From assembly GCA_024275145.1 (NCBI GenBank), contig JAJRZR010000093.1:7228-71227 (forward strand): a DNA stretch of 64,000 bases, given 5' to 3'. Below, one piece after another: positions 32 to 51,265 of this stretch. Each line of letters starts with the position of its first letter. Position 1 is the first letter of the stretch. Source of the stretch: Deltaproteobacteria bacterium. GTDB lineage: Bacteria; Desulfobacterota; Dissulfuribacteria; Dissulfuribacterales; QOAL01. The notes below the pieces were generated by a model. It was not told the DNA's origin and searched no databases. It was given only the letters and a program-made list of their open reading frames with translations. The position numbers were made by a program, and so were the translations under genes.

Positions 32-119
32 GGAGGGATGGCCGAGTGGTTTAAGGCGGCGGTCTTGAAAACCGCTGTGCCGAAAGGCACCGTGGGTTCG
101 AATCCTACTCCCTCCGCCA
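32..119 (+). tRNA. tRNA-Ser (anticodon UGA), class II tRNA with long variable arm, CCA encoded
   Basis: Acceptor stem GGAGGGA/TCCCTCC. Anticodon stem GCGGT/ACCGC with loop CT-TGA-AA. Long extra arm GTGCC-GAAA-GGCAC. T-arm GTGGGTTCGAATCC. Ends G-CCA at 116-119. Confidence 0.95.
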
Positions 120-156: not shown

Positions 157-248
<92 letters not shown>

Positions 249-29378: not shown

Positions 29379-30230
29379 TTAAAATTCTACTGGTAGCTTT
29401 TGTACCTCAGCCCTGGTAAATACCGGGCCGTCCTTGCAGACGTATACCGGTCCCACGTTGCAGTGACCACATACGCCAAGGCCACACTTCATCCGGTTTT
29501 CAAGGGAGAGATATACCTGGTCGTCTGTCCAGCCGATCTTTTCCAGTGGCGGCATGGTAAACTTTATCATGATGGGGGGACCACATATGAGGGCGGCGGA
29601 GTTCTCCGGTGATGGGGCAACCTGCCCGGCAATGGTGGGCACGAAGCCCACCAAGCCGTCCCATCCAGGGGCATCCTGGTCGATAGTGACAAACATTTCC
29701 ATGTCATCCCGTTGGGACCATGCCTTAAGCTCTTCTTTGTACAATAGCATCCCCGGCGTTCTGGCACCATATATCACGGTGATCTTACCGTAATCCTGTC
29801 TATGGGCCAGCATATATATCAGGGTAGCCCTGAGAGTGGTGAAGGCGAATCCACCCGCGATTATGACGATATTCTTTCCTTTAAGCCCCTCGTCTACCGG
29901 GAAACCGTTACCAAGGGGACCCCTTATACCGATTCTTGCCCCGACATCCATCTTGTGCAGAGCCGTTGTAACCACCCCCGCCCTGTTGACCGTAAAGAGA
30001 AGGTGGCCCTTTTCCGTTGGAGAAGATGCAATACCTATGGGTATCTCACCTTTGCCTGCCAGTGACAGCATGGCAAACTGTCCTGGTATGTGGTTCCAAC
30101 TGGCCATATCTTCCGGCTTTTCAAGGATGATCCTGTAGGTCTTGAGGTTCTGGTCCTCTGTTTCTATGGTAATAGCATCTATCCTTCCAGGGTACGGGAG
30201 ATAGGGGTTTTTTTGATCTGTATTTTTCAT
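29379..30230 (-). CDS. FlxA-like FAD/NAD(P)-binding oxidoreductase with C-terminal [2Fe-2S] motif (AsrB / sulfhydrogenase-gamma family)
   Basis: From ATG 30230 the product is about 283 aa. Ferredoxin-reductase-type fold (RPISIAS-like PIGIASSP, GPLGNGF, IIAGGFAF) and C-terminal CGLGVCGHCNVG. The track extends it to 30326, inside the upstream gene. Confidence 0.75.
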   Translation of the reverse strand: MKNTDQKNPYLPYPGRIDAITIETEDQNLKTYRIILEKPEDMASWNHIPGQFAMLSLAGKGEIPIGIASSPTEKGHLLFTVNRAGVVTTALHKMDVGARIGIRGPLGNGFPVDEGLKGKNIVIIAGGFAFTTLRATLIYMLAHRQDYGKITVIYGARTPGMLLYKEELKAWSQRDDMEMFVTIDQDAPGWDGLVGFVPTIAGQVAPSPENSAALICGPPIMIKFTMPPLEKIGWTDDQVYLSLENRMKCGLGVCGHCNVGPVYVCKDGPVFTRAEVQKLPVEF

Positions 30231-30238
30231 GGCATGTT

Positions 30239-31267
30239 TTATTGAATCGAAAGGAGGTCCCTCATTACCTCCCTGATGTCTATATTTACCGGGCATTCCC
30301 TGATACAGCGTCCACAGCCTACACATGAAAGCGGTCCGAAACGTTCGGGAAAGTATTTCAGCTTGTGCATGAAGCGGTTTCTCACCCGTTGGATCTTTTG
30401 CCCCCGGGGGTTGTGGCCGGATGCATGTTGTGTAAATAGCGGGAACATGCAGGAATCCCAGTATCTTATCCTCCTGCCCTTGCCCTTTACGGTTTCATCC
30501 TGGATGTCAAAGCAGTAACAGGTTGGGCACAGGAATGTACAGGCACCGCAATTGATACAGGAATCGGCAAGTTTTTGCCAGAAGGTGGCATTGTAGAGGT
30601 CCATCAGTGCCTTTTTTCTAAGGATTTCCGCCGGGCTTCCTGCAGGCCCTGTCCCTTTTTGTGCCTGTTTCCGTAAGGCCTCAAGTTGTTTCCTTTCTTC
30701 TGGTGATGCCTCCTTGGTATCATGTAGATGTCCCAGCAGTTCTTTTCCCTTCTCGCTCAGGACTGCGGCCAGGTAACCTCCTTCGATCTTGGTCATGGCA
30801 ATATCCATTCCCTCGGTACCCATAGGGGAACCTCCGGTCCATGAACAGAAACAGGTGCTGCATGGCCGTTCGCATGTAAAGCCTACTATCAGGGTGGTAT
30901 CCTTCCTGACCTTGAAATAGGGATCGTTGGCAAAGGGAAGTGAATTCAGCATGACACTCCTGGCATCGCACGGTCTGACCCCCAGTATGATCCTTTCCCG
31001 GCCTTTCCCCATGGCGGGTCTGGGTACATAGGCATCTCGGTCTCCTGACCTGGTTGAATACTCCAGCAAGGTCTCTGGTTGCGGGAAGAAGAAGACCTTT
31101 ATGGATGCCCTAGGTACTCCCTCGGCAGGTTCATTGAATGCCAAAGGTTCGATGCGTTGCCAGCCAACCTTGCCGTTTCCTTCCACAGGAGAAAACAGGT
31201 CCCTGGTTTCGTTCCACCTGGTCAGCAAGGTTTTCAGGTCGGAATTGTCAAGTTTTAGTATCTTCAC
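30239..31267 (-). CDS. FlxB-like iron-sulfur protein (AsrA / sulfhydrogenase-beta family)
   Basis: 342 aa. Cys clusters CSTCFC, CINCGACTFLCPTCYC and CVGCGRCIRECP. The start overlaps the upstream stop in ATGA. Confidence 0.72.
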   Translation of the reverse strand: MKILKLDNSDLKTLLTRWNETRDLFSPVEGNGKVGWQRIEPLAFNEPAEGVPRASIKVFFFPQPETLLEYSTRSGDRDAYVPRPAMGKGRERIILGVRPCDARSVMLNSLPFANDPYFKVRKDTTLIVGFTCERPCSTCFCSWTGGSPMGTEGMDIAMTKIEGGYLAAVLSEKGKELLGHLHDTKEASPEERKQLEALRKQAQKGTGPAGSPAEILRKKALMDLYNATFWQKLADSCINCGACTFLCPTCYCFDIQDETVKGKGRRIRYWDSCMFPLFTQHASGHNPRGQKIQRVRNRFMHKLKYFPERFGPLSCVGCGRCIRECPVNIDIREVMRDLLSIQ

Positions 31268-32322
31268 TTTTCGCTTCCCCCTTGTGTACCCTGTTTTTTC
31301 GATCCGGCGATGATGAATGTATCTGGATCTTCCGGCTGGTAGGTGGTAAGGGGAAGGGGAGAATTGAGATCAAGCCCTGGTTCCGATGCAAAAAGCTCCA
31401 GGCAGTCCTTCTGGAGTTTGCGGGTAAAGAGCCTCATCTTTATCCCCATGGGGCAGGCACTTTCGCACGCGCCGCAGTCGGTACAGCGGCCAGCACAATG
31501 GTATGCCCTGAGTATGTGAAAGGTTGCCGTATCGGTTTTATCTATGCTTTTCCCTACCCACTGGGGATGGGAATCGTCAACAAAGCAGGTGGGACAGTAG
31601 CAAAGCGGGCAGGCGTTTCTGCATGCGTAGCAGCGGATGCAGGTAGCAATCTCTTCCTGGAACCATGCCCACCGGGAACCTGCGTCCATACGTTCGATCT
31701 CCTCTATCCGGGCAAACGGCTCATGGACACGCCTTTCCGGAACGGTGGGGCCGATCTTTTTGTCAAGGATTACAGGCGATGGATGGACGCATGTAAGGCA
31801 GTTGTCACGAAGTACCTCTTGCCTTGCCGTTTCCATCTTGAAGTCCCTTCCAGAGATGATCACTCTTTCATCCGTCTCTTCAAGGGACTGGATCTCCCTA
31901 CCCCCTGCCAGGACCTCCAGCTTCCTTCTGTCGATCATGCCATGACTGTCCACTCCCAGGATGACCAGCCTCTCCCTGTCCATCTGATTTTCCTGGATCT
32001 GGATTACCATGTTCCTGGACCAGCATCCGGTGGCGATTACCCCTACCCTGGGTAATGGTCCCTCAGGAGGCGGTTCCCCAGGGCGCCTGGGTGGCTCAAG
32101 GGATTTCAGCAGGCCTGGCAGGTAATTGGCCAGGTTCATCACGCATAGGCCGTTCCATACCAGTTTGTCCGTTTCCTCTGGGGTTCTCGCGACGAAGGGC
32201 CTGGTAACAGTAGGAAGGCTTCCCTTGACAAAGCCAAGGAAGGCAGCGACCTTGCCGGACTCCAGGAGATCCTTTGCCTCCCTTCTGATTGCTTCAGTAG
32301 TTTGTGAAAAGAGAGTTTCCAT
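31264..32322 (-). CDS. FlxC-like iron-sulfur protein
   Basis: 352 aa. Cys clusters CIRCYACRNACPLCYCPTC and CTDCGACESACP. Size and position match the second Fe-S subunit of Flx-type modules. Confidence 0.65.
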   Translation of the reverse strand: METLFSQTTEAIRREAKDLLESGKVAAFLGFVKGSLPTVTRPFVARTPEETDKLVWNGLCVMNLANYLPGLLKSLEPPRRPGEPPPEGPLPRVGVIATGCWSRNMVIQIQENQMDRERLVILGVDSHGMIDRRKLEVLAGGREIQSLEETDERVIISGRDFKMETARQEVLRDNCLTCVHPSPVILDKKIGPTVPERRVHEPFARIEEIERMDAGSRWAWFQEEIATCIRCYACRNACPLCYCPTCFVDDSHPQWVGKSIDKTDTATFHILRAYHCAGRCTDCGACESACPMGIKMRLFTRKLQKDCLELFASEPGLDLNSPLPLTTYQPEDPDTFIIAGSKKQGTQGGSEK

Positions 32323-32328
32323 GGGCAG

Positions 32329-32772
32329 TTATCCGATTTCTTTGACCAGGTGCCTTGCCGGGCCCACTGTCTTGATGCGGGTGGTTACCTCCCTGACCAG
32401 TTCAGCAAATTGTTCACCTTCCGAGGCGGATATCCAGGAAAAATTGATCCTTTCAGGTTCTATGCCTATGAATTCCAACAGGTTCTTGAGCAGGGCAAAC
32501 CGGCGCCTGGCATATAGGTTGCCACTTATGTAGTGGCAGTCACCAGGATGGCACCCAGAGACCAGTATCCCATCTGCCCCTGCCTTAAGCGCATCAAGGA
32601 TCATGTTGGCGCTTACTCTCCCCGAGCACGGAACCCTTATGATGCGGATATTCGGGGGATATTGAAAACGGCTTACTCCAGCCAGATCCGCCCCGGCATA
32701 GCTGCACCAGTTACAGAGGAAGGCGATTATCTTGGGCTCCCATTTTTGATCTTTATCAGATGCCGAATCCAT
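32329..32772 (-). CDS. flxD: MvhD-like (FlxD) [2Fe-2S] electron-transfer subunit
   Basis: 147 aa. IIAFLCNWCSYAGADLAG...IRVPCSGRV...VSGCHPGDCHY is the methyl-viologen-reducing hydrogenase delta-subunit signature. SD AAGGGGG lies 6 nt upstream. Confidence 0.87.
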   Translation of the reverse strand: MDSASDKDQKWEPKIIAFLCNWCSYAGADLAGVSRFQYPPNIRIIRVPCSGRVSANMILDALKAGADGILVSGCHPGDCHYISGNLYARRRFALLKNLLEFIGIEPERINFSWISASEGEQFAELVREVTTRIKTVGPARHLVKEIG

Positions 32773-32787
32773 GTATGGCCCCCTTGG

Positions 32788-35700
32788 CTAGCAGATTTCC
32801 ATGGCTGCCTCGATAGCCGCCATTATCTGTTCGTTCCCGATATTTTTCAGTGTCACCGCATCAGAGCGGCATCCGGCTACACATGCACCGCATCCCTTGC
32901 ACATGGCGGTGTCTACCGTGGCGAGCCTGGAGTCCTCATCAAGGTGTATGGCATTATAGGCGCAGACCATGGTACATACACCGCAGCCTACACATTTTCC
33001 ATGGTCTACCACAGCGGTGATGCTCTCGGCGGGTATGGCGTCCTGCGCCAGTATTGTGGATGCCCTGGCGGCAGCGGCCTTGGCCTGGGCGATGGTTTCG
33101 TCCATTGGCTTCGGATAGTGACAAAGACCTGCCATGAATATCCCGTCTGTGGCAAAATCCACAGGCCTTAGCTTCATGTGGGCCTCGAGGAAGAAGCGAT
33201 CTGATGTCATGGAGCATTTAAAGGCCCTAGATACAACGTCTGCATCAACCTTAGGCCTTACTGCTGTTGCAAGGACGAGCATGTCAGGATGCAGCCTGAC
33301 CGGCCGATCCAGGATGGGGTCTTTTGCCTCTACCTGGATCTTGCCCTGTTCATCCCAGACCTTGGGGATGTTGTCAAGGTCATATCTTATGAAGACTATG
33401 CCCTTTTCCCTTGCCCTTTGGTACAACCGCTCCTTTTCCCCATAGGTTCTTATGTCCCTGTAGAGCATGAATATTTCCATGTCAGGGTTCAGCTCCTTGA
33501 GGTGTAGCGCCTGGTCGATGGCATGGGTACAGCAGACCCTTGAGCAATAGGGTTTCTCAGATACCCTGGAACCCGCGCATAGTATGAATACGGTCTGTCC
33601 CTTTTCTTTGAGTGCCGGGTCTTCCTTGATGAATCTCTTGTCCAGTTCCAGGAGTACGTGTACCTCTGGATGCTTGCCGTAGAGGTAGTTCCATCTGCCT
33701 TCCCTTGGTTTGTGGGAGCCTGCCCCTATGGCAATGATTGCTGCGCCATGGGAGACCTTGCTACCGTCCGATAGCAGGGTCTTGAATTGTCCCACGGAAC
33801 CCTCGACACGCTCTACGCTGGTCCCTAGGCGTAGGTCAATATGGGAGTGGCCTTCCACTTGACGGCATAGTCCCTTGAGATATTCCTGTACCAGGTCGCC
33901 CTGCCATGTACGGTAGAATTTACGCGCGTGGCCACCAAGCCGATCCTTCCTTTCTACTAGGACTACCGGAATCCCCTGATCTGCAATGGAAAGTGCCGCT
34001 GTCATGCCGGCAACGCCTGCCCCAAGCACCAGTGCCCTTTTTACTACTGACACGGTGTTGTAGGCCAGTGCCTCGTCCTGTCGCACCTTTGCCACCGCCA
34101 TCCTGACGAGGTCCTTAGCCTTTTGTGTTGCCTCGTCTGGGAATTTTTGATGTACCCAGGAATCCTGGTCCCTGATATTTGCCATCTCGAACAAGAACTT
34201 GTTGAGGCCGGCATCCCTCAGGGTCTCCTGGAACAGAGGCTCGTGCGTTCTTGGGGTACACGAGGCTACTACCACCCGGTTGAGCCCTTCCCTTTTTATG
34301 ATCTCTGCCATCTGGTTAATGGTGTCTTGGGAACAGGTAAACAGGTTGTTCTGGGCGAATACCACGCCGGGGAGCGTTCGTGCATAATCGGTGACCGCTG
34401 CTACGTCGACCACACTTGCAATATTTATCCCGCATGAGCATACAAATACCCCTATCCTTGGTGGTTCGGCCCACACGTTTCTTTCATCAGGGTATTCCTT
34501 TTTCCTAGTCTCGCTCCATCTTGACGGTGCAAGGACCCTGCTGGCTTCCAGTGCAGAGGCACTCGCCTCCATGACGGACTGGGGGATATCCTTTGGCTCG
34601 GATACTGCTCCACAGACGCAGACCCCCGGCCTGTTGGTTGATACCGGCCTGAAGGCACTGGTTGCCACGAAATTATTGGGGTCAAGTTCTACACCAAGAC
34701 GCCGTGCAAGTTCAGCGGCCTGCCTGTCCATCTCAAGGCCCACTGAGAGCACGACCAGATCGAATTCTTCCTGGTTGATGAGTCCGTCATCACCTACGTA
34801 TCTGAGTATCAGGTTGTCATCGTGGCCTGCTGGCAGGACACTGTGTATCCGGCAGCGATGGAAGTTTACGCCCTCGGCCCTGGCCCTGTCGTAGTAGGCC
34901 TCGAATTCTTTGCCGTGTGTCCTCATGTCCATGAAGAAGATGCTGGTGGCCAGGTCTGGCCCTTGGGCGTGCTCCCTGGCAATTACGGCCTGTTTTATCG
35001 CATACATGCAGCATACCGAGGAACAGTAACCATGGCAGGCACGGTTGATGTCCCTTGAGCCAACACATTGTAGCCAGGCTATTCGCCTAGGTTCCTTGTG
35101 ATCAGAGGGACGCTCCATATGTCCAAGGCATGGTCCCGAAGGACTAAGCAGACGTTCGAACTCCATGGCTGTGACGACGTTGGGAAGCCTGCCATAGCCG
35201 GTGAAATCCAGGATGGAAGGGTCGAATGGTGAAAAGCCCAATGCCAGTATTACAGAACCCACCTCGATTTGTATCTCCCGGGGTTGGTCATCGAAATTTA
35301 TGGCTCCGGAGGGGCAGACCTTCTGGCACATGCCACACCTTCCTGGCTTCTTGAGCCAGATGCATTGATCAGGATCTATGGCATATTTCAGGGGTACGGC
35401 CTGGGGATATTTGAGATAAATGGCCTTTCTCTTCCCAAGCCCCAGATCGAATTCGTTCGGGACTTTCTTGGGGCACTTTTCTGCACAGGTGCCGCAGGCG
35501 ATACATTTTGCAGGATCAACGTATCTGGGATTCTGCCGTACGGTGGCGGTAAACGCACCTTCTTCACCTTCAAGGGCCAGGACCTCTGAAAGGGTCATGA
35601 GGTTGATATTGAGGTGCCGACCGCATTCCACCAATTTGGGGGAGAGTATGCAGGCGGAGCAGTCATTTGTTGGGAATGTCTTGTCTAACTGGGACATCCG

Positions 35701-35838
35701 GCCGCCTATGGCCGAACTTTTTTCGATCAGGTGGACATAAAATCCACTGTCTGCCATATCAAGGGCGGCTTGAACACCTGCAATACCGCCTCCCACCACC
35801 ATTACGGAGCCCTTGGGCCTATCGGAAGGATTGCTCAT
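32788..35838 (-). CDS. hdrA: Large (about 1016-aa) HdrA-like flavoprotein with two FAD-binding modules and multiple Fe-S clusters
   Basis: Two dinucleotide-binding motifs (VMVVGGGIAGVQAALDMADSG and ALVLGAGVAGMTAALSIADQG). Two C-x-G-S-R regions (LQCVGSRD, ILCAGSRV). Ferredoxin motifs CIACGTCAEKCP, CGMCQKVCP, CVGCGVCTMVCA and CKGCGACVAGC. ATG 35838 overlaps the upstream TGA as ATGA. Confidence 0.9.
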   Translation of the reverse strand: MSNPSDRPKGSVMVVGGGIAGVQAALDMADSGFYVHLIEKSSAIGGRMSQLDKTFPTNDCSACILSPKLVECGRHLNINLMTLSEVLALEGEEGAFTATVRQNPRYVDPAKCIACGTCAEKCPKKVPNEFDLGLGKRKAIYLKYPQAVPLKYAIDPDQCIWLKKPGRCGMCQKVCPSGAINFDDQPREIQIEVGSVILALGFSPFDPSILDFTGYGRLPNVVTAMEFERLLSPSGPCLGHMERPSDHKEPRRIAWLQCVGSRDINRACHGYCSSVCCMYAIKQAVIAREHAQGPDLATSIFFMDMRTHGKEFEAYYDRARAEGVNFHRCRIHSVLPAGHDDNLILRYVGDDGLINQEEFDLVVLSVGLEMDRQAAELARRLGVELDPNNFVATSAFRPVSTNRPGVCVCGAVSEPKDIPQSVMEASASALEASRVLAPSRWSETRKKEYPDERNVWAEPPRIGVFVCSCGINIASVVDVAAVTDYARTLPGVVFAQNNLFTCSQDTINQMAEIIKREGLNRVVVASCTPRTHEPLFQETLRDAGLNKFLFEMANIRDQDSWVHQKFPDEATQKAKDLVRMAVAKVRQDEALAYNTVSVVKRALVLGAGVAGMTAALSIADQGIPVVLVERKDRLGGHARKFYRTWQGDLVQEYLKGLCRQVEGHSHIDLRLGTSVERVEGSVGQFKTLLSDGSKVSHGAAIIAIGAGSHKPREGRWNYLYGKHPEVHVLLELDKRFIKEDPALKEKGQTVFILCAGSRVSEKPYCSRVCCTHAIDQALHLKELNPDMEIFMLYRDIRTYGEKERLYQRAREKGIVFIRYDLDNIPKVWDEQGKIQVEAKDPILDRPVRLHPDMLVLATAVRPKVDADVVSRAFKCSMTSDRFFLEAHMKLRPVDFATDGIFMAGLCHYPKPMDETIAQAKAAAARASTILAQDAIPAESITAVVDHGKCVGCGVCTMVCAYNAIHLDEDSRLATVDTAMCKGCGACVAGCRSDAVTLKNIGNEQIMAAIEAAMEIC

Positions 35839-37067
35839 GGCTTTACCATTGCCTTTTCTATCCAGTTCCACAGGTGGGTAGTCTTCCACTTGCCACCATA
35901 GTGGTCACATATATCGAGTACCTGGGTATGGCAGTTGTGGCAGGGGGTTATCACTACGTCAGCGCCAGTGGAGGCCAATTGGTCGAATTTTATCTTGCCG
36001 AATTTCCTCCTGTTTTTTACGAAGCCGGCCTGAAGTGCCCCGCCTCCTCCACCGCAGCAATAGTTATTCGATTTGTTGGGCCAGACATCGATGAAGTTTT
36101 CTGCACCTACAACCTTCTTTATTACGAATCTCAGATCCTCGGCTACCTGGTCCCCTAGCCCCTGGCGTACCAGTTTGCATGGATCCTGTACGGTAAATTT
36201 CACTCCCTCGGTATTCCAGGATGGATCGACCACCAGTTTCCCCTCACGTATCCACTGGGCATAGAGAGTGATGATGCTTATGAATTCGAAGTTGTGGGGT
36301 ATCTTGAACCTTCGCAACCCCTCCAGGGTCGCGTAGAACATGTGGCCTCACTCGGTATTTATGTAGTATTTACAACCCAGTGCATCCACGGTCTCTGCCT
36401 GCATCCGTACCGTATATTCCCAGTCGTCCGGGTCCCCGGTAAACAGGCAGTAATTGGCTCCGTCCCACCACTTGGACGAGTAAGTCCAGTCTATGCCGAC
36501 CCTGTGCAGGATCTTCCATAGGGGAACCATCTCTTCTGGTTCCACAGTGGGCTCCTTGGCGTTTTGGTTCAGGTAGAACATTGCCCCCTTCTTATCGATT
36601 GGCGCTTCGAGATCCGACCATTCTGGTTCGTTCTTCCTGACCTCGGCAAGGACATCGCCAACCACCCATACGAAATCCTCGTTTGGGATCCCCGTGCTGT
36701 TCGATTTTTTCTGAAGATCACATGATCGTTGCAGGTTGGGGGGCCTTTGTTCCTTGGGGCGCATTCCCCTTATCTCATAGACTATTCTTCCAACGTCTAT
36801 GCCCATTGGACAGGCGTGCTTGCATCTTTGGCACATGGTGCAGGAATAGATCCAGTTGGTGCTCAATACTTCTTCATCCTGCCCAAGGACGAGGAGCCTC
36901 AGGAATTTTCTGGGATCAAGGCCTTCCAGGCCGGTGGCAGGGCATCCGCTGGCACAAAGTCCGCAGGTGAGGCAGTAATCGATGTGGGCATCGGGAAAGG
37001 CGGCCTGAATCTGTTCCTTTACCCTGGTTTTAAGGGACGATAGATCTATTGGCTCATAGGGTGCCAT
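35835..37067 (-). CDS. HdrD-like (fused HdrC+HdrB type) Fe-S/CCG-domain protein, read through one in-frame UGA (probable selenocysteine)
   Basis: The track ORFs 36348..37079 and 35835..36341 are in the same frame and separated only by TGA (36350-36348): ...YYINTE-[UGA]-GHMFYATLEG.... The N-terminal part has CLTCGLCASGCP and CTMCQRCKHACP. The C-terminal part has NYCCGGGGG and PCHNCH. ATG 37067 is preceded by GAGG. Confidence 0.7.
36313..36333 (-). promoter_or_regulatory. SECIS-like hairpin 14 nt downstream of the UGA
   Basis: On the minus strand, CGCGACCC (36333-36326), loop UGGAG (36325-36321), GGGUUGCG (36320-36313). This gives 8 bp including one G-U. Three more pairs are possible beyond a 1x1 mismatch. 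The apical loop starts 25 nt after the U of UGA. Confidence 0.5.
36348..36350 (-). other. In-frame UGA, candidate selenocysteine codon
   Basis: Minus-strand reading: TAC TAC ATA AAT ACC GAG TGA GGC CAC ATG TTC TAC. Coding-like sequence in the same frame lies on both sides. Confidence 0.6.
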
Positions 37068-37246
37068 GGCGTACCTCAACGAGAGTAGGACAGGGTTAAG
37101 ATCAAATTACCATAATTTCTCTACTGCTTTTGCCATAGTGTGTCAAGTATAGAAGGGGGCATTCCCCATCTACTGACCTCGGGTAACAGGTTGGTATATA
37201 GGGTACGTCCTTGACCTGCTACCAGCTGCTCCGTATAGTCTCGCAT

Positions 37247-46593: not shown

Positions 46594-47799
46594 ATGTCTT
46601 TTCTTAGACAGATCGTACCGGTCTTTTGTGTAGTCCTTGTAATAGGCCTGTCCGGCTGTGGGCAGAAAATCAAGGACTCCATCGTGCCTGTAAACACGCC
46701 TACCCATAGTAGAACAAATGAGCAGATCGTTATCCTGCCCTTTGCCGATTATTCCGTAGGAAGGCATACGGATGATGCACTTCGCCGACAGATAAAGATA
46801 CAGGAGGCCCTGGCCTATAGGCTGGCACAAAGGGGATTTCTAGTTCCGGTTGAAGAGGACGTCGTTCAGTACCTGTCGGATATAGGGGTTATCCTGATCG
46901 TAAAGGCATCCACGGAGGCAAACCGGCCCTATGCGGACCTGAAAAGGGAGATAGGGACGGGATGGTCTCCGGAGATGGAATCGGAGATACGAACGCTACT
47001 GATGCAAAACAGGGGATTAAACGATTCAGAAACCAGGATGGAAATCACCAAGGTGGGATTGGACCGTGGAACCTTACAACAGATAGGTCGCTATTTCGGA
47101 GCAAATTACGTACTCAGGGGGCGTATCGTTGAATATGAGATACGTAACAACCAGGCCCTCAGCCCGATTCAGCAAGGTATCCTTCCGTTCTTTTTTGACA
47201 GTGCTTCCGGGTTTCTGTTTGGATTTGCCGATTCGGGCCGTTATGACCTGTGGCAGGACATGGCTGTAGGCGGAGGCCTGGGTGCCCTTTTCGGTTCCTC
47301 TGCCAATACGCCCTTCAATGCGCCTGCTAAGAGACAGGTGGTTTCCGGCCATCCCATGTTCGGCGTATCGCGCACGGTTGAAAGAGGAGGCTACAGCAAC
47401 AGTAACGGACTCAATGCTGCGGTATGGGGCGGGACAGGTGCCGCTGTCGCCTATCTGGCATCAAAGGGTGGGAATGTACCCCAGGCGGTTATCCAGTTGA
47501 GTCTTGCCCTGCAGGATGTCCACACCGGAAAGGTAGTATGGGAGAACCGGGTGGAAAAACGGGTGGAGCCGGAGTCTGCATGGGCAGATCCGTCCGAAAG
47601 GCTTCACATGGATACGGCGGTGGAGGAGGCTGCTCGGATTTTGGCAGACAACTTGATGGCCTCTTTCCGGCTCAATGCCTCACGTGGGGCGTCACCAGTC
47701 GCATCTTCCGGCAGTATCGGGCCCAGACCGTCGGGCAAGGTCCCTGACAAGGTACCCCCTCCTGCCAATCCGCCTGAGCCCGCACCAGAATCCCCATAG
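46594..47799 (+). CDS. Lipoprotein with a CsgG/LpoB-like core, Gly-zipper segments and a Pro-rich tail
   Basis: MSFLRQIVPVFCVVLVIGLSGC has lipobox L-S-G-C, and GGAGG lies upstream. VILPFADYS..., GANYVLRGRIVEYE and IQLSLALQDVHTGKVVWE recall CsgG-family strands. Gly-rich AVGGGLGALFG and VWGGTGAAVAYL. The tail is PPPANPPEPAPESP. Confidence 0.65.
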   Translation: MSFLRQIVPVFCVVLVIGLSGCGQKIKDSIVPVNTPTHSRTNEQIVILPFADYSVGRHTDDALRRQIKIQEALAYRLAQRGFLVPVEEDVVQYLSDIGVILIVKASTEANRPYADLKREIGTGWSPEMESEIRTLLMQNRGLNDSETRMEITKVGLDRGTLQQIGRYFGANYVLRGRIVEYEIRNNQALSPIQQGILPFFFDSASGFLFGFADSGRYDLWQDMAVGGGLGALFGSSANTPFNAPAKRQVVSGHPMFGVSRTVERGGYSNSNGLNAAVWGGTGAAVAYLASKGGNVPQAVIQLSLALQDVHTGKVVWENRVEKRVEPESAWADPSERLHMDTAVEEAARILADNLMASFRLNASRGASPVASSGSIGPRPSGKVPDKVPPPANPPEPAPESP

Positions 47800-47872
47800 A
47801 CATGGGGCTCCTGATCCCAGGATTATATTTTGTAATCATCATGGGCCTGGACATGTCAAGGAGAAGAACAAG

Positions 47873-50800
47873 ATGATCCGTTTAGAATGGTTGGCACGGT
47901 CTTTCCACCGGTTTTTATTAATACAGATTCTTGTCAGTTTGTCTGTTTCGTCAATTGCCGTAGTCGTTTACGCCTCCAATGAAGGTCCGCCAATTGAGAT
48001 TACGGTGGCCGAATACGATCAACAAAATCCCCATGTGGTGGCCCTCCCGGACAAAAATCTATGGTTCGTTGTGTGGGAGGACTGGAGAACCGTTGCCAAT
48101 CCCGTCGATACCAATACCGGGGCGGATATATGGGGCCAGTTTATTGATGGAGATGGAAATTTTTGTGGTGAGCCTGTCCTGATATCCGATGAGGATAACG
48201 ATGGGAAAGGTGATCCTGGTAACCAGACCTTTCCCCGTGTGGCCTATGATCAGGGCGACAGCCGGCTGGGTGTGGTATGGCAGGACACCCGTGGCCGGGG
48301 TGTCTTCTTCAGGGCTATAGATGTATCTGATTGTTCTTCCCTGCAATTTTCTTCGGAGCTCGAGTTCAGTTACAATCCAGTTTTCGGGGATTCACTTCTT
48401 CTGGGCAGGGCCAAGCCAAAGATAGTCTATGACCCAGTCAGAGACCAGTTCTGGGTGGCCTGGACAGAAAACAGATCGGCCAGGAAGCGTGTAACCGGCA
48501 ATCCGTTTGGCTGTAGTGCCAATGCCTTTTCCTGGACAGTCGGGGATACCAGCATGGTTTCCTTTGCTGCGCTCAGCAGCCCTGCCTCCGGCAATATAAG
48601 CGAGGTGGTTCCACCCGATGTAATCAGGACAGATGATAATATCAATGTAAGGGAAATAAGCCATAGCGTTGCCTGTACAACAGAGATTATCACCTATGAG
48701 TTTTTTGATTCGGTCAACAACGTGGATATAGCAGTGGATCAATCATCAGGTGACATCCTTTTGGCCTGGGAAGGGGTGAGGCGTAAGCTTGTCGTCACGA
48801 ATAACAGCGATGAGATCGAAAACAGCCCTACCGATTGTTTCGACTGCGGCGCAGACGGGGTTAGCAGTGAGGCTGAAATCTCATCGTTCGATGGGGATCC
48901 CAATGTGGCCAACATATACGGTATCCACATGAACGAGGTCCCATTGTCCGAGATCATGGCCATGCGTCTGAGCGATGCGGACAATCTTGCCTACAATCCA
49001 TCGGTAATGGCAGATCCTGTCTCGGGCAAGTACCTGGTCGCCTGGGAAGATCTGCGTGGAGGGGCCAATTATACCAAGATTTATGGACAACTCGTCTACA
49101 CTACAGGTAACAAGTACAACACCAATTTCATAATAGGTTACCAGGATACCAATAGCGACGGTGAACTCGACGAGATTGTGAAGAATTCCAGGCAGACCAA
49201 TCCCTATGTCGGCTATGATTATACGAATCAACGCTTTTTCGTGGCCTGGCAGGATGGTCGCAATGGTTCGGTTTCGGTAGAAAACCTGGATATCTTCGGT
49301 CAATATGTGGACGGTGAAGGTTCACTCAGGGGTAGCAATTATCTACTTAGTGTCTCTTCAAACGGTATCCCCGCCGCGGGGAATCAGTATTCACCTGCCA
49401 TCGCCTTCAATCAATCGAATCACATGTTCCTGGGCGTGTGGAAGGATGCACGCAACTATGCAACCACGCGATCGGACATATATGGACAGCGTTTTACCAT
49501 AGGCCAGCCGCAACTGACTGTCCTTCATATGGACAATAGCCTGTTGTCACCCAGCCTCATAGATTTTGGGAGCCGTCTGTCAGGCGAAACCACGTCTTCC
49601 TCCTTCAAGATAAAGAATACGGGCGACATCATGCTGTCCGTACAGAATCTTTCCTCTCTGACAAGTCCCTTTGCCTATGTAGGCCTTCCAGACGAGATGC
49701 AGGATGGCGATACCACAGGTATCGACTTGATGCCAGGTGGAGAGTTTACCGTCACCGTATCCTTTACACCGACCGCGGCGGGTTCCTTTCATGATGACAT
49801 TTTGATCACATCGAACGCCGGTGAGGTTACTATCAATCTCCAAGGGCTTGGATTGCAACAGAATCCCAGTACCTCCTCGGTATCGGTCAATCCATCGGCG
49901 GTATCCTTTGGATCTGTCGCTGTGGGTGATGCGGTGTACCAGAGTGTGGTGCTGCAAAATGACGGCAATACCGCTGTCAATCTGGTGGAGGTGGAAGAAC
50001 CTTCGGAGCCATTTACAGTACTTGGTGGGCCATCCTCAGGTCAGAAGATAGATGCTGGCACCTCGGTGAATTTCGTTGTCAAGTTTGCGCCTACAAAGGG
50101 AGGCAGCAATAATAGCCGTCTTGCCTTCATATTCAAGGAGACAAATCCGGTTATAATCCAGCTTTCTGGTACCGGGTCGGAATCCACTGACCCTCCATCC
50201 ATCAGCCTGAGCACCAGTTCAGTGGGATTCGGCGAGGTCACTACCGGTAGCTCCAAGTCCGTAAATATCAAGATCTCCAATAACGGAGGCCAGACCGCAA
50301 AAATCCTTCACATAGATGCGCCGTCGGATGGCTTCACATACTCAAATGTCAGCAGCGGCACGGAGATAGAGCCTGGCAACTCGGTGCGGATGGTCATAAC
50401 CTTCAGCCCGCAGACGGCCAGTGAATACAGTGGCACTTTTGACATACTGTTCTCACATCTGACTAACCCTCTACATATAGCTGTAAAGGGTACAGGCCAG
50501 GATCCTTCCACTGCATCGGGTCCACCGGACATAGTCTTGTCTGACAGTAGTATCAGCTTTGCAGATACTGCAGTTGGGAATACGCGGTCCGAGCACTTTA
50601 CGATCACCAACGATGGTAAAGGTGCCGCCACCTTGCTTCAGGTGGATCTATGGGGGGATAGTTTCACTGTTGACGGTCTGGATCAGGGCATGACCATAGA
50701 ACCAGGTCAGACCATTCATGCGGTCATCGGCTTTAAACCTGCCAGCGAAGGAAGTGCCAGTGGGGAGCTGAGGTTGCTATTTAACCACCTGATGGATCCA

Positions 50801-51265
50801 ATGGTGGTATATCTTGAAGGTACGGGTGTGAATGAAGAGGACTATACCCCGGCTGGTGATGAAACAACAGCCAGCGGGCAGACCCCGCCATGGCTGAACC
50901 CATCTCTTCAACCACCTGAGGTATTGGTCTGGCAGGATTCCGCCGGTGGGGCAAAATGGAAGATCACATCCAATGATTTCACCTCCTATACTGCCAACAG
51001 GTATCTGATCGTTGTTACACCCTTTATCGATCCATGGACAGGTGGATGGCTTTTCTTCTCAAGAAGGGCCGATGGGTCCTTTGTGAAAGGGTTGTATCCT
51101 GAGGCAGCAAACTGGTCTATAACCACCTGGTCTGACTCGGTAGGTTCCTTGGATGACGTGATACCGGACGGCTACAAGGGAGCGGGGAAGTACTATCTTA
51201 TCTTTGGAATAATCATGCCGGATAATATCCATGCATACTACGATTGGATTTCCTGGACCAGGTAA
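47873..51265 (+). CDS. 1130-aa secreted or cell-surface protein: signal anchor, seven W-x-[DE]-x-R repeats (propeller-like), four tandem Ig-like (ASH / choice-of-anchor-D-like) modules, and a unique C-terminal domain
   Basis: AAGGAG lies 9 nt before ATG 47873. The N-terminal hydrophobic segment is FLLIQILVSLSVSSIAVVVYA. Repeats and modules are listed in the findings. The track ORF extends upstream to 47675 without support. Confidence 0.8.
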   Translation: MIRLEWLARSFHRFLLIQILVSLSVSSIAVVVYASNEGPPIEITVAEYDQQNPHVVALPDKNLWFVVWEDWRTVANPVDTNTGADIWGQFIDGDGNFCGEPVLISDEDNDGKGDPGNQTFPRVAYDQGDSRLGVVWQDTRGRGVFFRAIDVSDCSSLQFSSELEFSYNPVFGDSLLLGRAKPKIVYDPVRDQFWVAWTENRSARKRVTGNPFGCSANAFSWTVGDTSMVSFAALSSPASGNISEVVPPDVIRTDDNINVREISHSVACTTEIITYEFFDSVNNVDIAVDQSSGDILLAWEGVRRKLVVTNNSDEIENSPTDCFDCGADGVSSEAEISSFDGDPNVANIYGIHMNEVPLSEIMAMRLSDADNLAYNPSVMADPVSGKYLVAWEDLRGGANYTKIYGQLVYTTGNKYNTNFIIGYQDTNSDGELDEIVKNSRQTNPYVGYDYTNQRFFVAWQDGRNGSVSVENLDIFGQYVDGEGSLRGSNYLLSVSSNGIPAAGNQYSPAIAFNQSNHMFLGVWKDARNYATTRSDIYGQRFTIGQPQLTVLHMDNSLLSPSLIDFGSRLSGETTSSSFKIKNTGDIMLSVQNLSSLTSPFAYVGLPDEMQDGDTTGIDLMPGGEFTVTVSFTPTAAGSFHDDILITSNAGEVTINLQGLGLQQNPSTSSVSVNPSAVSFGSVAVGDAVYQSVVLQNDGNTAVNLVEVEEPSEPFTVLGGPSSGQKIDAGTSVNFVVKFAPTKGGSNNSRLAFIFKETNPVIIQLSGTGSESTDPPSISLSTSSVGFGEVTTGSSKSVNIKISNNGGQTAKILHIDAPSDGFTYSNVSSGTEIEPGNSVRMVITFSPQTASEYSGTFDILFSHLTNPLHIAVKGTGQDPSTASGPPDIVLSDSSISFADTAVGNTRSEHFTITNDGKGAATLLQVDLWGDSFTVDGLDQGMTIEPGQTIHAVIGFKPASEGSASGELRLLFNHLMDPMVVYLEGTGVNEEDYTPAGDETTASGQTPPWLNPSLQPPEVLVWQDSAGGAKWKITSNDFTSYTANRYLIVVTPFIDPWTGGWLFFSRRADGSFVKGLYPEAANWSITTWSDSVGSLDDVIPDGYKGAGKYYLIFGIIMPDNIHAYYDWISWTR

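What the first reader, a model, noticed from the sequence alone, without database searches (positions are those of the whole stretch)
36308..36350. SECIS-like stem-loop at the right distance downstream of the UGA
On the mRNA strand, 14 nt after the UGA, CGCGACCC-UGGAG-GGGUUGCG can form an 8-bp stem (one G-U) with a 5-nt G-rich apical loop. Three more pairs (UCU/GGA) are possible beyond a 1x1 mismatch. The apical loop begins 25 nt after the U of UGA. That is inside the window generally described for bacterial SECIS elements, where the loop lies a few tens of nt downstream and contains G. The hairpin is inside coding sequence, where a strong structure is otherwise unexpected.
Basis: seen in the sequence. 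Interest (0 to 1): 0.6.

Follow-up and report, generated by a model that had tools for sequence, protein, structure and literature searches.

The report
Selenocysteine insertion hairpin, known family
The hairpin is a genuine bacterial selenocysteine-insertion (SECIS) element that makes the ribosome read one in-frame UGA as selenocysteine in an iron-sulfur oxidoreductase gene, a selenoprotein family already catalogued in sulfate-reducing bacteria, so it is real but ordinary.

Summary
On the minus strand, UGA 36350-36348 interrupts one reading frame (35835-37079). It encodes an HdrD/GlpC-like Fe-S oxidoreductase with a 4Fe-4S dicluster domain and a CCG domain. The UGA aligns with an invariant Cys (NTE-C-GH) in 119/119 full-length homologues.

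Fourteen nt downstream, CGCGACCCU-GGA-GGGGUUGCG (36333-36313) folds as a 9-bp stem with a GGA triloop. Synonymous recoding of the same peptide matches its stability in only 0.2% of samples.

A pattern scan of GTDB genomes gave 117 orthologues with the same in-frame TGA, almost all Desulfobacterota. All carry a hairpin at the same position. The seven core pairs are 97-100% paired with many compensatory changes (A-U/G-C; U-A/G-C/U-G/A-U). The first loop base is G in 116/116 and the second is G or U.

Only 4% of 102 Cys-codon homologues keep at least 7 of the 9 pairs.

All four published bSECIS criteria are met. The family (Fe-S oxidoreductase-like "GlpC", motif UGH, next to hdrA-frhD) has been listed as a selenoprotein family since the mid-2000s.

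Not shown: SelB binding, Sec incorporation, and sel genes in the source genome.

Practical value: the two ORFs should be merged into one selenoprotein gene.

The parts
36348..36350 (-). In-frame UGA read as selenocysteine. It is residue 244 counted from the TTG at 37079, or residue 240 from the ATG at 37067.
   Evidence: It joins ORF 36348..37079 and ORF 35835..36341 in one frame. It aligns with an invariant Cys in 119/119 full-length homologues, motif NTE[C/U]GH. The same in-frame TGA with read-through homology occurs in 117 orthologues.
36334..36347 (-). 14-nt spacer between the UGA and the base of the upper stem (GGCCACAUGUUCUA)
   Evidence: Read directly from the sequence. The spacing has no indels in any of the 115 aligned orthologues.
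36325..36333 (-). 5' arm of the SECIS upper stem, CGCGACCCU (mRNA positions 18-26 from the U of UGA)
   Evidence: MFE and centroid structure, RNAalifold consensus, pair counts.
36322..36324 (-). Apical triloop GGA (positions 27-29). If U26-G30 is open, the loop is UGGAG, 36321-36325.
   Evidence: G27 is invariant in 116/116 even though it is a third codon position. Position 28 is G in 103 and U in 13. This fits the published N1-G-[G|U]-N-N2 loop pattern (PMC13188914).
36313..36321 (-). 3' arm of the SECIS upper stem, GGGGUUGCG (positions 30-38)
   Evidence: Synonymous sites are constrained: the Gly codon is only GGA or GGG, and the Leu codon is UUG or CUG in 111/116, matching its pairing partner.
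36309..36337 (-). Full extent of the hairpin including the optional 3-bp lower stem (U14C15U16 at 36337-36335 with A40G41G42 at 36311-36309, across an A17 x A39 mismatch)
   Evidence: Present in the window's MFE structure but only partly conserved: these pairs form in 50-91% of orthologues. It is probably not essential.
35835..37079 (-). Complete selenoprotein gene for an HdrD/GlpC-like Fe-S oxidoreductase: an N-terminal 4Fe-4S dicluster domain, a degenerate CCG-like region carrying Sec, and a C-terminal CCG domain. The true start may be the ATG at 37067.
   Evidence: Pfam Fer4_8/Fer4_17 at residues 33-95 and CCG PF02754 at 296-387. Weak NCBIfam similarity to HmcF, TmcB and DsrK, all far below their cut-offs. 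Full-length Cys homologues of 405-430 aa at up to 73% identity. The public protein P0009 stops at the UGA.
32788..35838 (-). Downstream hdrA (double-length HdrA). Its likely ATG at 35838-35836 overlaps the selenoprotein gene's stop TGA at 35837-35835 (ATGA). The listed ORF begins at the GTG at 35889.
32329..32772 (-). mvhD/frhD-like gene (FlpD domain), Cys form, in the same operon
   Evidence: PF02662, E = 5e-57.

Best explanation
The hairpin at 36309-36337 (core 36313-36333, minus strand) is a bacterial SECIS element inside the coding sequence of one HdrD/GlpC-like Fe-S oxidoreductase gene (35835-37079).

Inferred mechanism, from the established bacterial pathway. When the ribosome reaches UGA 36350-36348, the hairpin 14 nt downstream is still folded at the mRNA entrance. 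Its apical G-[G/U]-N loop, on a 7-9-bp helix, is bound by the C-terminal domain of SelB in complex with GTP and Sec-tRNA(Sec). This tethers the ternary complex next to the A site, where it outcompetes release factor 2. Selenocysteine is inserted in place of the conserved Cys of the NTE-C-GH motif. Translation then melts the hairpin, reads it as ...YATLEGLR..., and completes a ~414-residue protein.

Shown here:
- the in-frame UGA and its Sec/Cys alignment;
- the hairpin and its excess stability given the peptide;
- its positional conservation, covariation and loop conservation in 116 orthologues;
- its absence from most Cys-codon homologues;
- its fit to the published bSECIS model.

Inferred only: SelB binding, actual Sec insertion, and the presence of selABCD in this organism.
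For: - One frame across the UGA, with a 4Fe-4S dicluster domain upstream and a CCG domain downstream.
- The UGA column is Cys in 119/119 full-length homologues.
Of these, 117 are orthologues with read-through homology, nearly all Desulfobacterota.
- Every one folds a hairpin at the same place.
- Covariation: the core pairs are 97-100% paired with AU<->GC and UA<->GC<->AU switches. Overall 88% of cells are paired, against 25-50% in the slid controls, and 0/500 shuffles reach the observed covariation score. RNAalifold gives the same helix.
- Third-codon positions inside the stem and loop are frozen only in the Sec forms: C24 116/116, G27 116/116, G36 112/116.
- Cys-codon homologues average 3.7 of 9 pairs, and 4% have at least 7.
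- Synonymous-recoding null: p about 0.002.
- This is the only TGA of 2136 in the window that has both a qualifying hairpin and flanking ORFs.
- About half of the window's long ORFs end in TGA, so UGA is normally a stop here and the recoding is site-specific.
- The family is listed as the selenoprotein 'Fe-S oxidoreductase-like (GlpC)', motif UGH, clustered with hdrA-frhD in Deltaproteobacteria (PMC1794560; PMC13188914).
- The bSECIS criteria and the SelB mechanism are taken from PMC13188914 and PMC10778597.
Against: - No tRNA-Sec, selA, selB or selD lies in the 64-kb window. The rest of the genome could not be searched.
- No Rfam family matches the region.
- The dinucleotide-shuffle z-score of the 64-nt segment is only -2.1.
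- The orthologue set was retrieved with a pattern that required TGA. The absence of TAA or TAG at this site was therefore not tested.
- There is no experimental evidence for Sec incorporation in this protein family within what I read.
Confidence: 0.93

Rival explanations
1. The TGA is a real stop. Two separate genes (HdrC-like and HdrB-like) abut here, and the hairpin is an intercistronic element that modulates re-initiation at the ATG two codons downstream (36341).
For: An ATG lies 6 nt after the TGA and opens a 168-aa ORF. Public annotation ends a protein at the TGA (P0009). HdrC and HdrB are separate subunits in methanogen enzymes (PDB hits cover only the HdrC-like part).
Against: The ATG codon is specific to the window's own clade. 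In the other orthologues that codon is Ser, Glu, Val, Ala or His, with no start codon there. All 117 orthologues keep exactly the same frame and zero spacing across the TGA. The TGA replaces an invariant Cys of single-polypeptide homologues. The hairpin loop has the SelB-type G-[G/U] signature.
Confidence: 0.03
2. The hairpin is a by-product of the encoded peptide and codon usage, or is simply inherited by descent, and has no RNA-level function.
For: The segment is coding and G+C-rich. The dinucleotide-shuffle z-score is modest at -2.1. The orthologues are related, so some shared pairing is expected.
Against: Synonymous recoding of the same peptide is as stable in only 0.2% of samples. The peptide itself varies (A[ITV][LRQ]xGL, with x being E, V, A, S, F or Y) while pairing is kept through double changes. 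Synonymous sites are frozen in the Sec forms but free in the Cys forms. Cys forms lack the helix.
Confidence: 0.02
3. This is a pseudogene or an assembly/sequencing error that created a premature stop.
For: A single-base change, TGC or TGT to TGA, would produce it.
Against: The same TGA occurs in 117 independent genomes, together with a co-conserved hairpin. The downstream frame is intact to a normal stop that overlaps the hdrA start. The closest relative, L057 (86% nucleotide identity), has the same TGA and hairpin.
Confidence: 0.01

Closest known systems
Fe-S oxidoreductase-like (GlpC) selenoprotein family of Deltaproteobacteria and its bSECIS (Syntrophobacter fumaroxidans, Desulfovibrio vulgaris, Desulfotalea psychrophila; PMC1794560, PMC13188914)
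   Same: The Sec motif is the same, U-G-H (here NTE-U-GH). It is the same kind of protein (Fe-S binding, GlpC/HdrD-like). It has the same operon partners immediately downstream, hdrA and frhD/mvhD. The taxon is the same (Desulfobacterota). The SECIS lies in the coding sequence just after the UGA.
   Different: The published operons continue with the hydrogenase genes frhG-frhA. Here the genes after mvhD are two Fe-S proteins and an FAD/NAD(P)-binding protein resembling sulfhydrogenase beta/gamma or AsrA/AsrB. HdrA and MvhD here are Cys forms. I could not align the window directly to the published reference accession (WP_174406253.1).
Consensus bacterial SECIS model (bSECISearch; Zhang and Gladyshev 2005, as summarised in PMC13188914)
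   Same: The apical loop is 3 nt, or 5 nt if the closing pair is open (allowed 3-9). The upper stem is 9 bp (allowed 4-16). G is the first loop base, followed by G or U, with the flanking N1-N2 positions paired. The UGA-to-loop distance is 22-23 nt (allowed 16-37). The hairpin energy is -13.5 kcal/mol or lower (threshold -7.5).
   Different: Nothing differs. It is a textbook fit.
Escherichia coli fdhF SECIS
   Same: It is a hairpin directly 3' of the Sec UGA within the ORF. It has G followed by U or G in the apical loop as the presumed SelB contact. The mechanism is the same (SelB tethering).
   Different: From memory, not tested here: the fdhF element has a bulged U in the upper helix and a minimal stem-loop about 11 nt after the UGA. 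The window's upper helix is a perfect 9-bp duplex with no bulge and starts 14 nt after the UGA. There is no sequence similarity.
Archaeal and eukaryotic SECIS elements
   Same: They serve the same purpose, recoding UGA to Sec.
   Different: Those lie in untranslated regions, have kink-turn/GA-quartet or GAA_A motifs, and act at a distance (PMC13188914). None of this applies here.

Membership tests
Bacterial SECIS (bSECIS consensus model) | Apical loop of 3-9 nt on an upper stem of 4-16 bp | tested here: met
   A 9-bp stem plus a 3-nt loop, or 8 bp plus 5 nt. The same holds in 116 orthologues and in the RNAalifold consensus.
Bacterial SECIS (bSECIS consensus model) | At least one G in the first two loop positions; pattern N1 G [G|U] N N2 with N1-N2 pairing | tested here: met
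   The window has U-GGA-G. G27 is present in 116/116. Position 28 is G in 103 and U in 13. The 26-30 positions are paired in 114/115, with six standard pair types.
Bacterial SECIS (bSECIS consensus model) | [quoted passage not shown] | tested here: met
   22 nt to U26, or 23 nt to G27, read. There are no indels in the orthologues.
Bacterial SECIS (bSECIS consensus model) | Minimum free energy of -7.5 kcal/mol or lower | tested here: met
   -13.5 for the bare hairpin, -16.0 for nt 12-44, -21.4 for the 64-nt segment.
Bacterial SECIS (bSECIS consensus model) | Lies directly after an in-frame UGA that aligns with Cys in homologues | tested here: met
   (119/119 Cys).
Bacterial SECIS (bSECIS consensus model) | Structure maintained by compensatory substitutions and absent from Cys-codon homologues | tested here: met
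Bacterial SECIS (bSECIS consensus model) | Binds SelB and supports Sec insertion | not testable with these tools
   Needs a gel shift, a reporter assay, 75Se labelling or mass spectrometry.
Bacterial SECIS (bSECIS consensus model) | Host genome encodes selA, selB, selC (tRNA-Sec) and selD | tested here: inconclusive
   None was found in the 64-kb window (tRNA scan; Pfam scans).
Fe-S oxidoreductase-like (GlpC) selenoprotein family | Sec in a U-G-H motif | tested here: met
   NTE-U-GH in the window. The motif is as listed in PMC13188914.
Fe-S oxidoreductase-like (GlpC) selenoprotein family | Fe-S binding GlpC/HdrD-type architecture (4Fe-4S dicluster plus CCG domain) | tested here: met
   Pfam Fer4_8/Fer4_17 and PF02754. 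There is only weak similarity to the GlpC, HdrC, HmcF, TmcB and DsrK models.
Fe-S oxidoreductase-like (GlpC) selenoprotein family | Clustered with hdrA and frhD/mvhD | tested here: met
   hdrA and the FlpD-domain gene lie immediately downstream on the same strand. frhG and frhA are absent.
Fe-S oxidoreductase-like (GlpC) selenoprotein family | Membership of PANTHER PTHR43551, or direct similarity to reference WP_174406253.1 | not testable with these tools
   No PANTHER library is available and the reference sequence is not held.
Rfam SECIS families | Score at or above the gathering threshold of any Rfam SECIS model | tested here: not met
   There was no SECIS hit at gathering score in the window, nor at E <= 10 in 36200-36450. 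Bacterial SECIS elements are family-specific and poorly covered by Rfam.
E. coli fdhF-type SECIS | Bulged U in the upper helix (recalled from the literature) | tested here: not met
   The upper helix is an uninterrupted 9-bp duplex. It works like fdhF but is not of that sequence type.

The most novel reading that the evidence does not exclude
The UGA plus SECIS may act as more than a decoding signal: it could be a selenium-dependent gate for the whole operon. The selenoprotein gene's stop overlaps the hdrA start (ATGA, 35838-35835). Termination at UGA 36350 when Sec-tRNA is scarce would strand ribosomes about 510 nt upstream of that junction. That would reduce coupled translation of hdrA-mvhD and of the NAD(P)H-oxidoreductase genes, tying synthesis of the whole electron-transfer complex to selenium supply.

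A related reading concerns protein evolution. The in-ORF SECIS may have forced the Sec subfamily to give up a Trp that is near-invariant in the sampled Cys forms (codon 25-27 is UGG there, against CUG, CGG or CAG in the Sec forms). In that case RNA structure has shaped protein evolution at this site.
Probability: 0.1. Interest if true: 0.4.

Novelty: already known. Interest (0 to 1): 0.18.

Why it matters
The main value is for annotation. The two adjacent ORFs (36348-37079 and 35835-36341) are one selenoprotein gene, and the public record truncates it at the UGA (P0009).

It also marks the organism as a selenocysteine user. The selenoprotein sits at the head of an hdrA-mvhD electron-transfer operon, which is relevant for reconstructing the energy metabolism of Desulfobacterota.

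The 116-sequence alignment is a clean, strongly covarying example of a family-specific bacterial SECIS. It could seed a covariance model, since Rfam has none that detects it. It does not change current understanding.

Tried and rejected
- Rfam at gathering threshold on the whole window, and at E <= 10 on 36200-36450, gave no SECIS family, only a spurious 13-bit snoRNA match on the opposite strand.
- The look-up of encoding contigs for the truncated public protein P0009 found nothing on record, so the source contig and its sel genes could not be retrieved.
- The PDB sequence search found only HdrC-type matches to the N-terminal ferredoxin domain, plus one weak match (9ojn) over the C-terminal region. 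Neither shows what the Sec residue does.
- Cluster P0065 is named 'oxidoreductase, selenocysteine-containing', but its representative has Cys at the site. It shows only that annotators link the family to Sec.
- RNAalifold also drew a 3-bp mini-hairpin across the UGA (alignment columns 9-11 with 16-18). Two of its three pairs lie in invariant columns, and all of its columns were specified by my search pattern. It therefore carries no independent evidence, and I do not count it as part of the element.
- Pfam scans of 27 further window proteins found no SelA, SelB or SelD.
- I considered alternative genetic codes in which UGA encodes Trp or Gly. I rejected this because about half of the window's long ORFs end in TGA and the aligned residue is Cys.
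- I did not build a covariance model. Coding homology would make hits to this family uninformative beyond the pair counts.

Full report
**1. What is in the sequence**

On the minus strand, ORF 36348..37079 (243 aa) ends in TGA at 36350-36348. ORF 35835..36341 (168 aa) continues in the same frame six bases later.

Read through, the 414-residue product has a 4Fe-4S dicluster domain (Pfam Fer4_8/Fer4_17, residues 33-95). It also has a C-terminal cysteine-rich CCG domain (PF02754, residues 296-387). NCBIfam gives only sub-threshold similarity to the HdrD-type proteins HmcF, TmcB and DsrK, and to HdrC and GlpC. The PDB sequence search matches HdrC subunits over the N-terminal part.

The mRNA after the stop reads UGA GGC CAC AUG UUC UAC GCG ACC CUG GAG GGG UUG CGA AGG.
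- a 14-nt spacer;
- CGCGACCC (36333-36326) pairing with GGGUUGCG (36320-36313), with one G-U;
- the loop UGGAG starting 25 nt after the U of UGA;
- three further pairs, UCU/AGG, beyond an A x A mismatch.

**2. Is the hairpin more than chance?**

RNAfold returns this hairpin as both the MFE and the centroid structure. It also closes U26-G30, giving 9 bp and a GGA triloop. The energy is -21.4 kcal/mol for 64 nt, but the z-score is only -2.1 against dinucleotide shuffles.

Because the segment is coding, I used a stricter null: 5000 synonymous recodings of the same peptide drawn from the window's own codon usage. Their mean energy for nt 12-44 is -5.7 +/- 2.4 kcal/mol, against -16.0 observed. Only 0.22% are as stable, and 0.32% have all nine pairs.

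I also scanned all 2136 TGA triplets of the window (both strands) with the published bSECIS constraints:
- 2.5% have some hairpin at -7.5 kcal/mol or lower.
- Only five reach -13.5. The two strongest are 14-15-bp stems with short reading frames on both sides of the TGA.
- Only the TGA at 36350 has a qualifying hairpin together with long in-frame ORFs on both sides.

**3. Is the UGA a Sec codon?**

A protein search returned thousands of homologues. In the best 120, every one of the 119 that span the site has Cys in the UGA column, within an almost invariant NTE-C-GH motif. The remaining sequence, P0009, is the window's own product truncated at the UGA in the public record.

Of those hits, 117 are true orthologues in which the frame runs straight through the TGA into homologous sequence. 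Almost all are Desulfobacterota: Desulfobacterales, Desulfovibrionales, Syntrophobacter and Thermodesulfobacteria-like MAGs, plus isolates such as Desulfonema magnum.

The ATG two codons after the TGA, which might suggest a separate downstream gene, is peculiar to the window's clade. Elsewhere that codon is Ser, Glu, Val, Ala or His.

About half of the window's long ORFs end in TGA. UGA is therefore an ordinary stop in this genome, and the recoding must be site-specific.

**4. Comparative test of the structure**

All 116 orthologous segments fold a hairpin at exactly the same distance from the UGA. I aligned 115 distinct sequences without gaps (A1) and counted pairs.

| Alignment columns | mRNA positions | Result |
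|---|---|---|
| 29-45 | 20-36 | 113/115 paired |
| 30-44 | 21-35 | 115/115 (A-U 76, G-U 39) |
| 31-43 | 22-34 | 112/115 (A-U 67, G-C 45) |
| 32-42 | 23-33 | 115/115 (U-A 89, U-G 16, C-G 10) |
| 33-41 | 24-32 | 115/115 |
| 34-40 | 25-31 | 115/115 |
| 35-39 | 26-30 | 114/115 (U-A 54, G-C 45, U-G 9, A-U 4, C-G 1, G-U 1) |

The two pairs below the core form in 74-81% of sequences, and the 3-bp lower stem in 50-91%. Overall 88% of cells are paired, against 25-50% when the 3' partners are slid by 1-3 columns. None of 500 shuffles reaches the observed covariation score. RNAalifold, which knows nothing of the window's fold, predicts the same 8-bp helix and triloop.

The compensatory changes cut across the genetic code:
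- Thr/Ile ACC/AUC goes with Leu UUG, and Val GUC goes with Leu CUG.
- Leu CUG goes with Glu GAR. Arg CGG goes with Val, Ala, Ser, Phe or Tyr codons that end in C in 45 of the 46 cases. Gln CAG goes with a codon ending in U in five of six cases.
- Third-codon positions are frozen: C24 in 116/116, G27 in 116/116, G36 in 112/116. The Gly codon is only GGA or GGG.

Compensation also occurs inside the window's own clade. L075 and L093 have G22-C34 where the window has A22-U34.

**5. Negative control**

The same pattern with TGY, run on metagenome contigs, gave 108 true Cys-codon homologues, 102 of them distinct.

| Measure | Sec forms | Cys forms |
|---|---|---|
| Mean pairs formed at the nine stem positions | 8.5 | 3.7 |
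| Share with at least 7 pairs | 100% | 4% |
| Local MFE, nt 12-44 (kcal/mol) | -11.8 | -6.1 |

The closest Cys relative of the window's clade in this set (L234) has 3 of 9 pairs. The few Cys forms that keep the helix (for example L191) look like recent Sec-to-Cys conversions with fossil SECIS elements. That phenomenon is already described in PMC1794560, Fig. 4.

**6. Fit to the known model**

The published bacterial SECIS consensus is given in PMC13188914, with the 16-37-nt rule also in PMC10778597.

| Published requirement | Value here |
|---|---|
| Apical loop 3-9 nt | 3 nt (or 5 nt) |
| Upper stem 4-16 bp | 9 bp (or 8 bp) |
| G in the first two loop positions, usually N1-G-[G/U]-N-N2 with N1-N2 paired | U-GGA-G; G27 invariant; position 28 is G or U; positions 26-30 covary |
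| 16-37 nt from UGA to the loop | 22-23 nt |
| MFE of -7.5 kcal/mol or lower | -13.5 or lower |

No Rfam model detects the element. That is unsurprising, because bacterial SECIS elements are gene-family-specific.

**7. What it is and how it works**

The element is the SECIS of a selenoprotein gene. By the established bacterial mechanism (PMC10778597), SelB carrying Sec-tRNA(Sec) binds the apical part of the hairpin while the UGA is in or near the A site. It delivers Sec in competition with release factor 2. The ribosome then unwinds the hairpin and translates it.

The SelB binding and Sec insertion steps are inferred, not shown. No sel gene or tRNA-Sec lies in the window, and I could not search the rest of the genome.

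The Sec replaces the conserved Cys of NTE-C-GH. This motif lies in a region upstream of the intact CCG domain. By eye, that region resembles a degenerate first CCG repeat: YCLF in place of CCG, and TEUGH where the intact repeat has TPCHNC. This is my reading of the sequence and was not tested, so the chemical role of the residue remains open.

**8. Context**

The gene's stop (35837-35835) overlaps the likely ATG of a 1016-1033-aa HdrA (ATGA). After it come an MvhD/FrhD-type gene, two Fe-S proteins and an FAD/NAD(P)-binding protein resembling sulfhydrogenase beta/gamma or AsrA/B. From memory, this resembles flx-hdr clusters of sulfate reducers; I did not test that.

The closest genome representative is a Deltaproteobacteria MAG (WFZW01000239.1, locus L057). 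It shares 86% nucleotide identity over 7.9 kb and has the same TGA and hairpin.

**9. Comparison with what is known, and verdict**

[quoted passage not shown] The 2026 review gives its Sec motif as UGH (PMC13188914). The window's gene has that motif, that architecture and those two neighbours.

It is an ordinary member of an already catalogued selenoprotein family with a textbook bSECIS.

Its value is in annotation (merge the two ORFs; the organism decodes Sec) and as a clean covariation data set. I score interest at 0.18.

The least ordinary reading still open is that the UGA/SECIS also makes translation of the ATGA-coupled hdrA operon selenium-dependent. I found no evidence for or against it.

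Noticed in passing
window 36348-37067 (-): The public protein record P0009 (239 aa, 100% identical) ends at the UGA. The selenoprotein is therefore mis-annotated as a truncated (Fe-S)-binding protein, with a separate downstream ORF.
   Followed up: partly
window 35835-35838 (-): The stop TGA of the selenoprotein gene overlaps the probable ATG of hdrA (ccATGAgc). This suggests translational coupling. The ORF finder's GTG start for hdrA at 35889 is probably too far upstream.
   Followed up: partly
window 29379-35889 (-): HdrA (double length, 1033 aa) and MvhD/FrhD (147 aa) are uninterrupted Cys forms here, although both are often selenoproteins in related operons. [quoted passage not shown]
   Followed up: partly
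L191 (also L186, L207, L224), codons after NTECGH: A small group of Cys-codon homologues (peptide AVWSGLQ) retains 7-8 of the 9 SECIS pairs (GCGGUCUGGUCAGGGCUGC). These are likely fossil SECIS elements from recent Sec-to-Cys conversion.
   Followed up: partly
alignment positions 25-27 after the UGA/UGY (window 36324-36326): In the sampled Cys forms this codon is almost always Trp (UGG, about 97%). In the Sec forms it is CUG, CGG or CAG (Leu, Arg, Gln). Either the Sec and Cys forms are distinct subfamilies, or the SECIS constrains the peptide here. The Cys relatives closest to the window (P0001-P0008) also lack the Trp.
   Followed up: no
window 2903 (-) and 16975 (+): Each of these TGA triplets is followed about 20 nt downstream by a very stable perfect hairpin (14-15 bp, about -26 kcal/mol). 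They look like intrinsic terminators or repeat elements.
   Followed up: no
window 32-119 and 157-248 (+): Two adjacent tRNA-Ser genes (anticodons UGA and GCU) lie at the start of the window. There is no tRNA-Sec in the window.
   Followed up: no
window 47675-51265 (+): A 1196-aa protein has several HYDIN/ASH/Cep192-type Ig-like domains (PapD-like folds). This is an unusual large surface or secreted protein.
   Followed up: no
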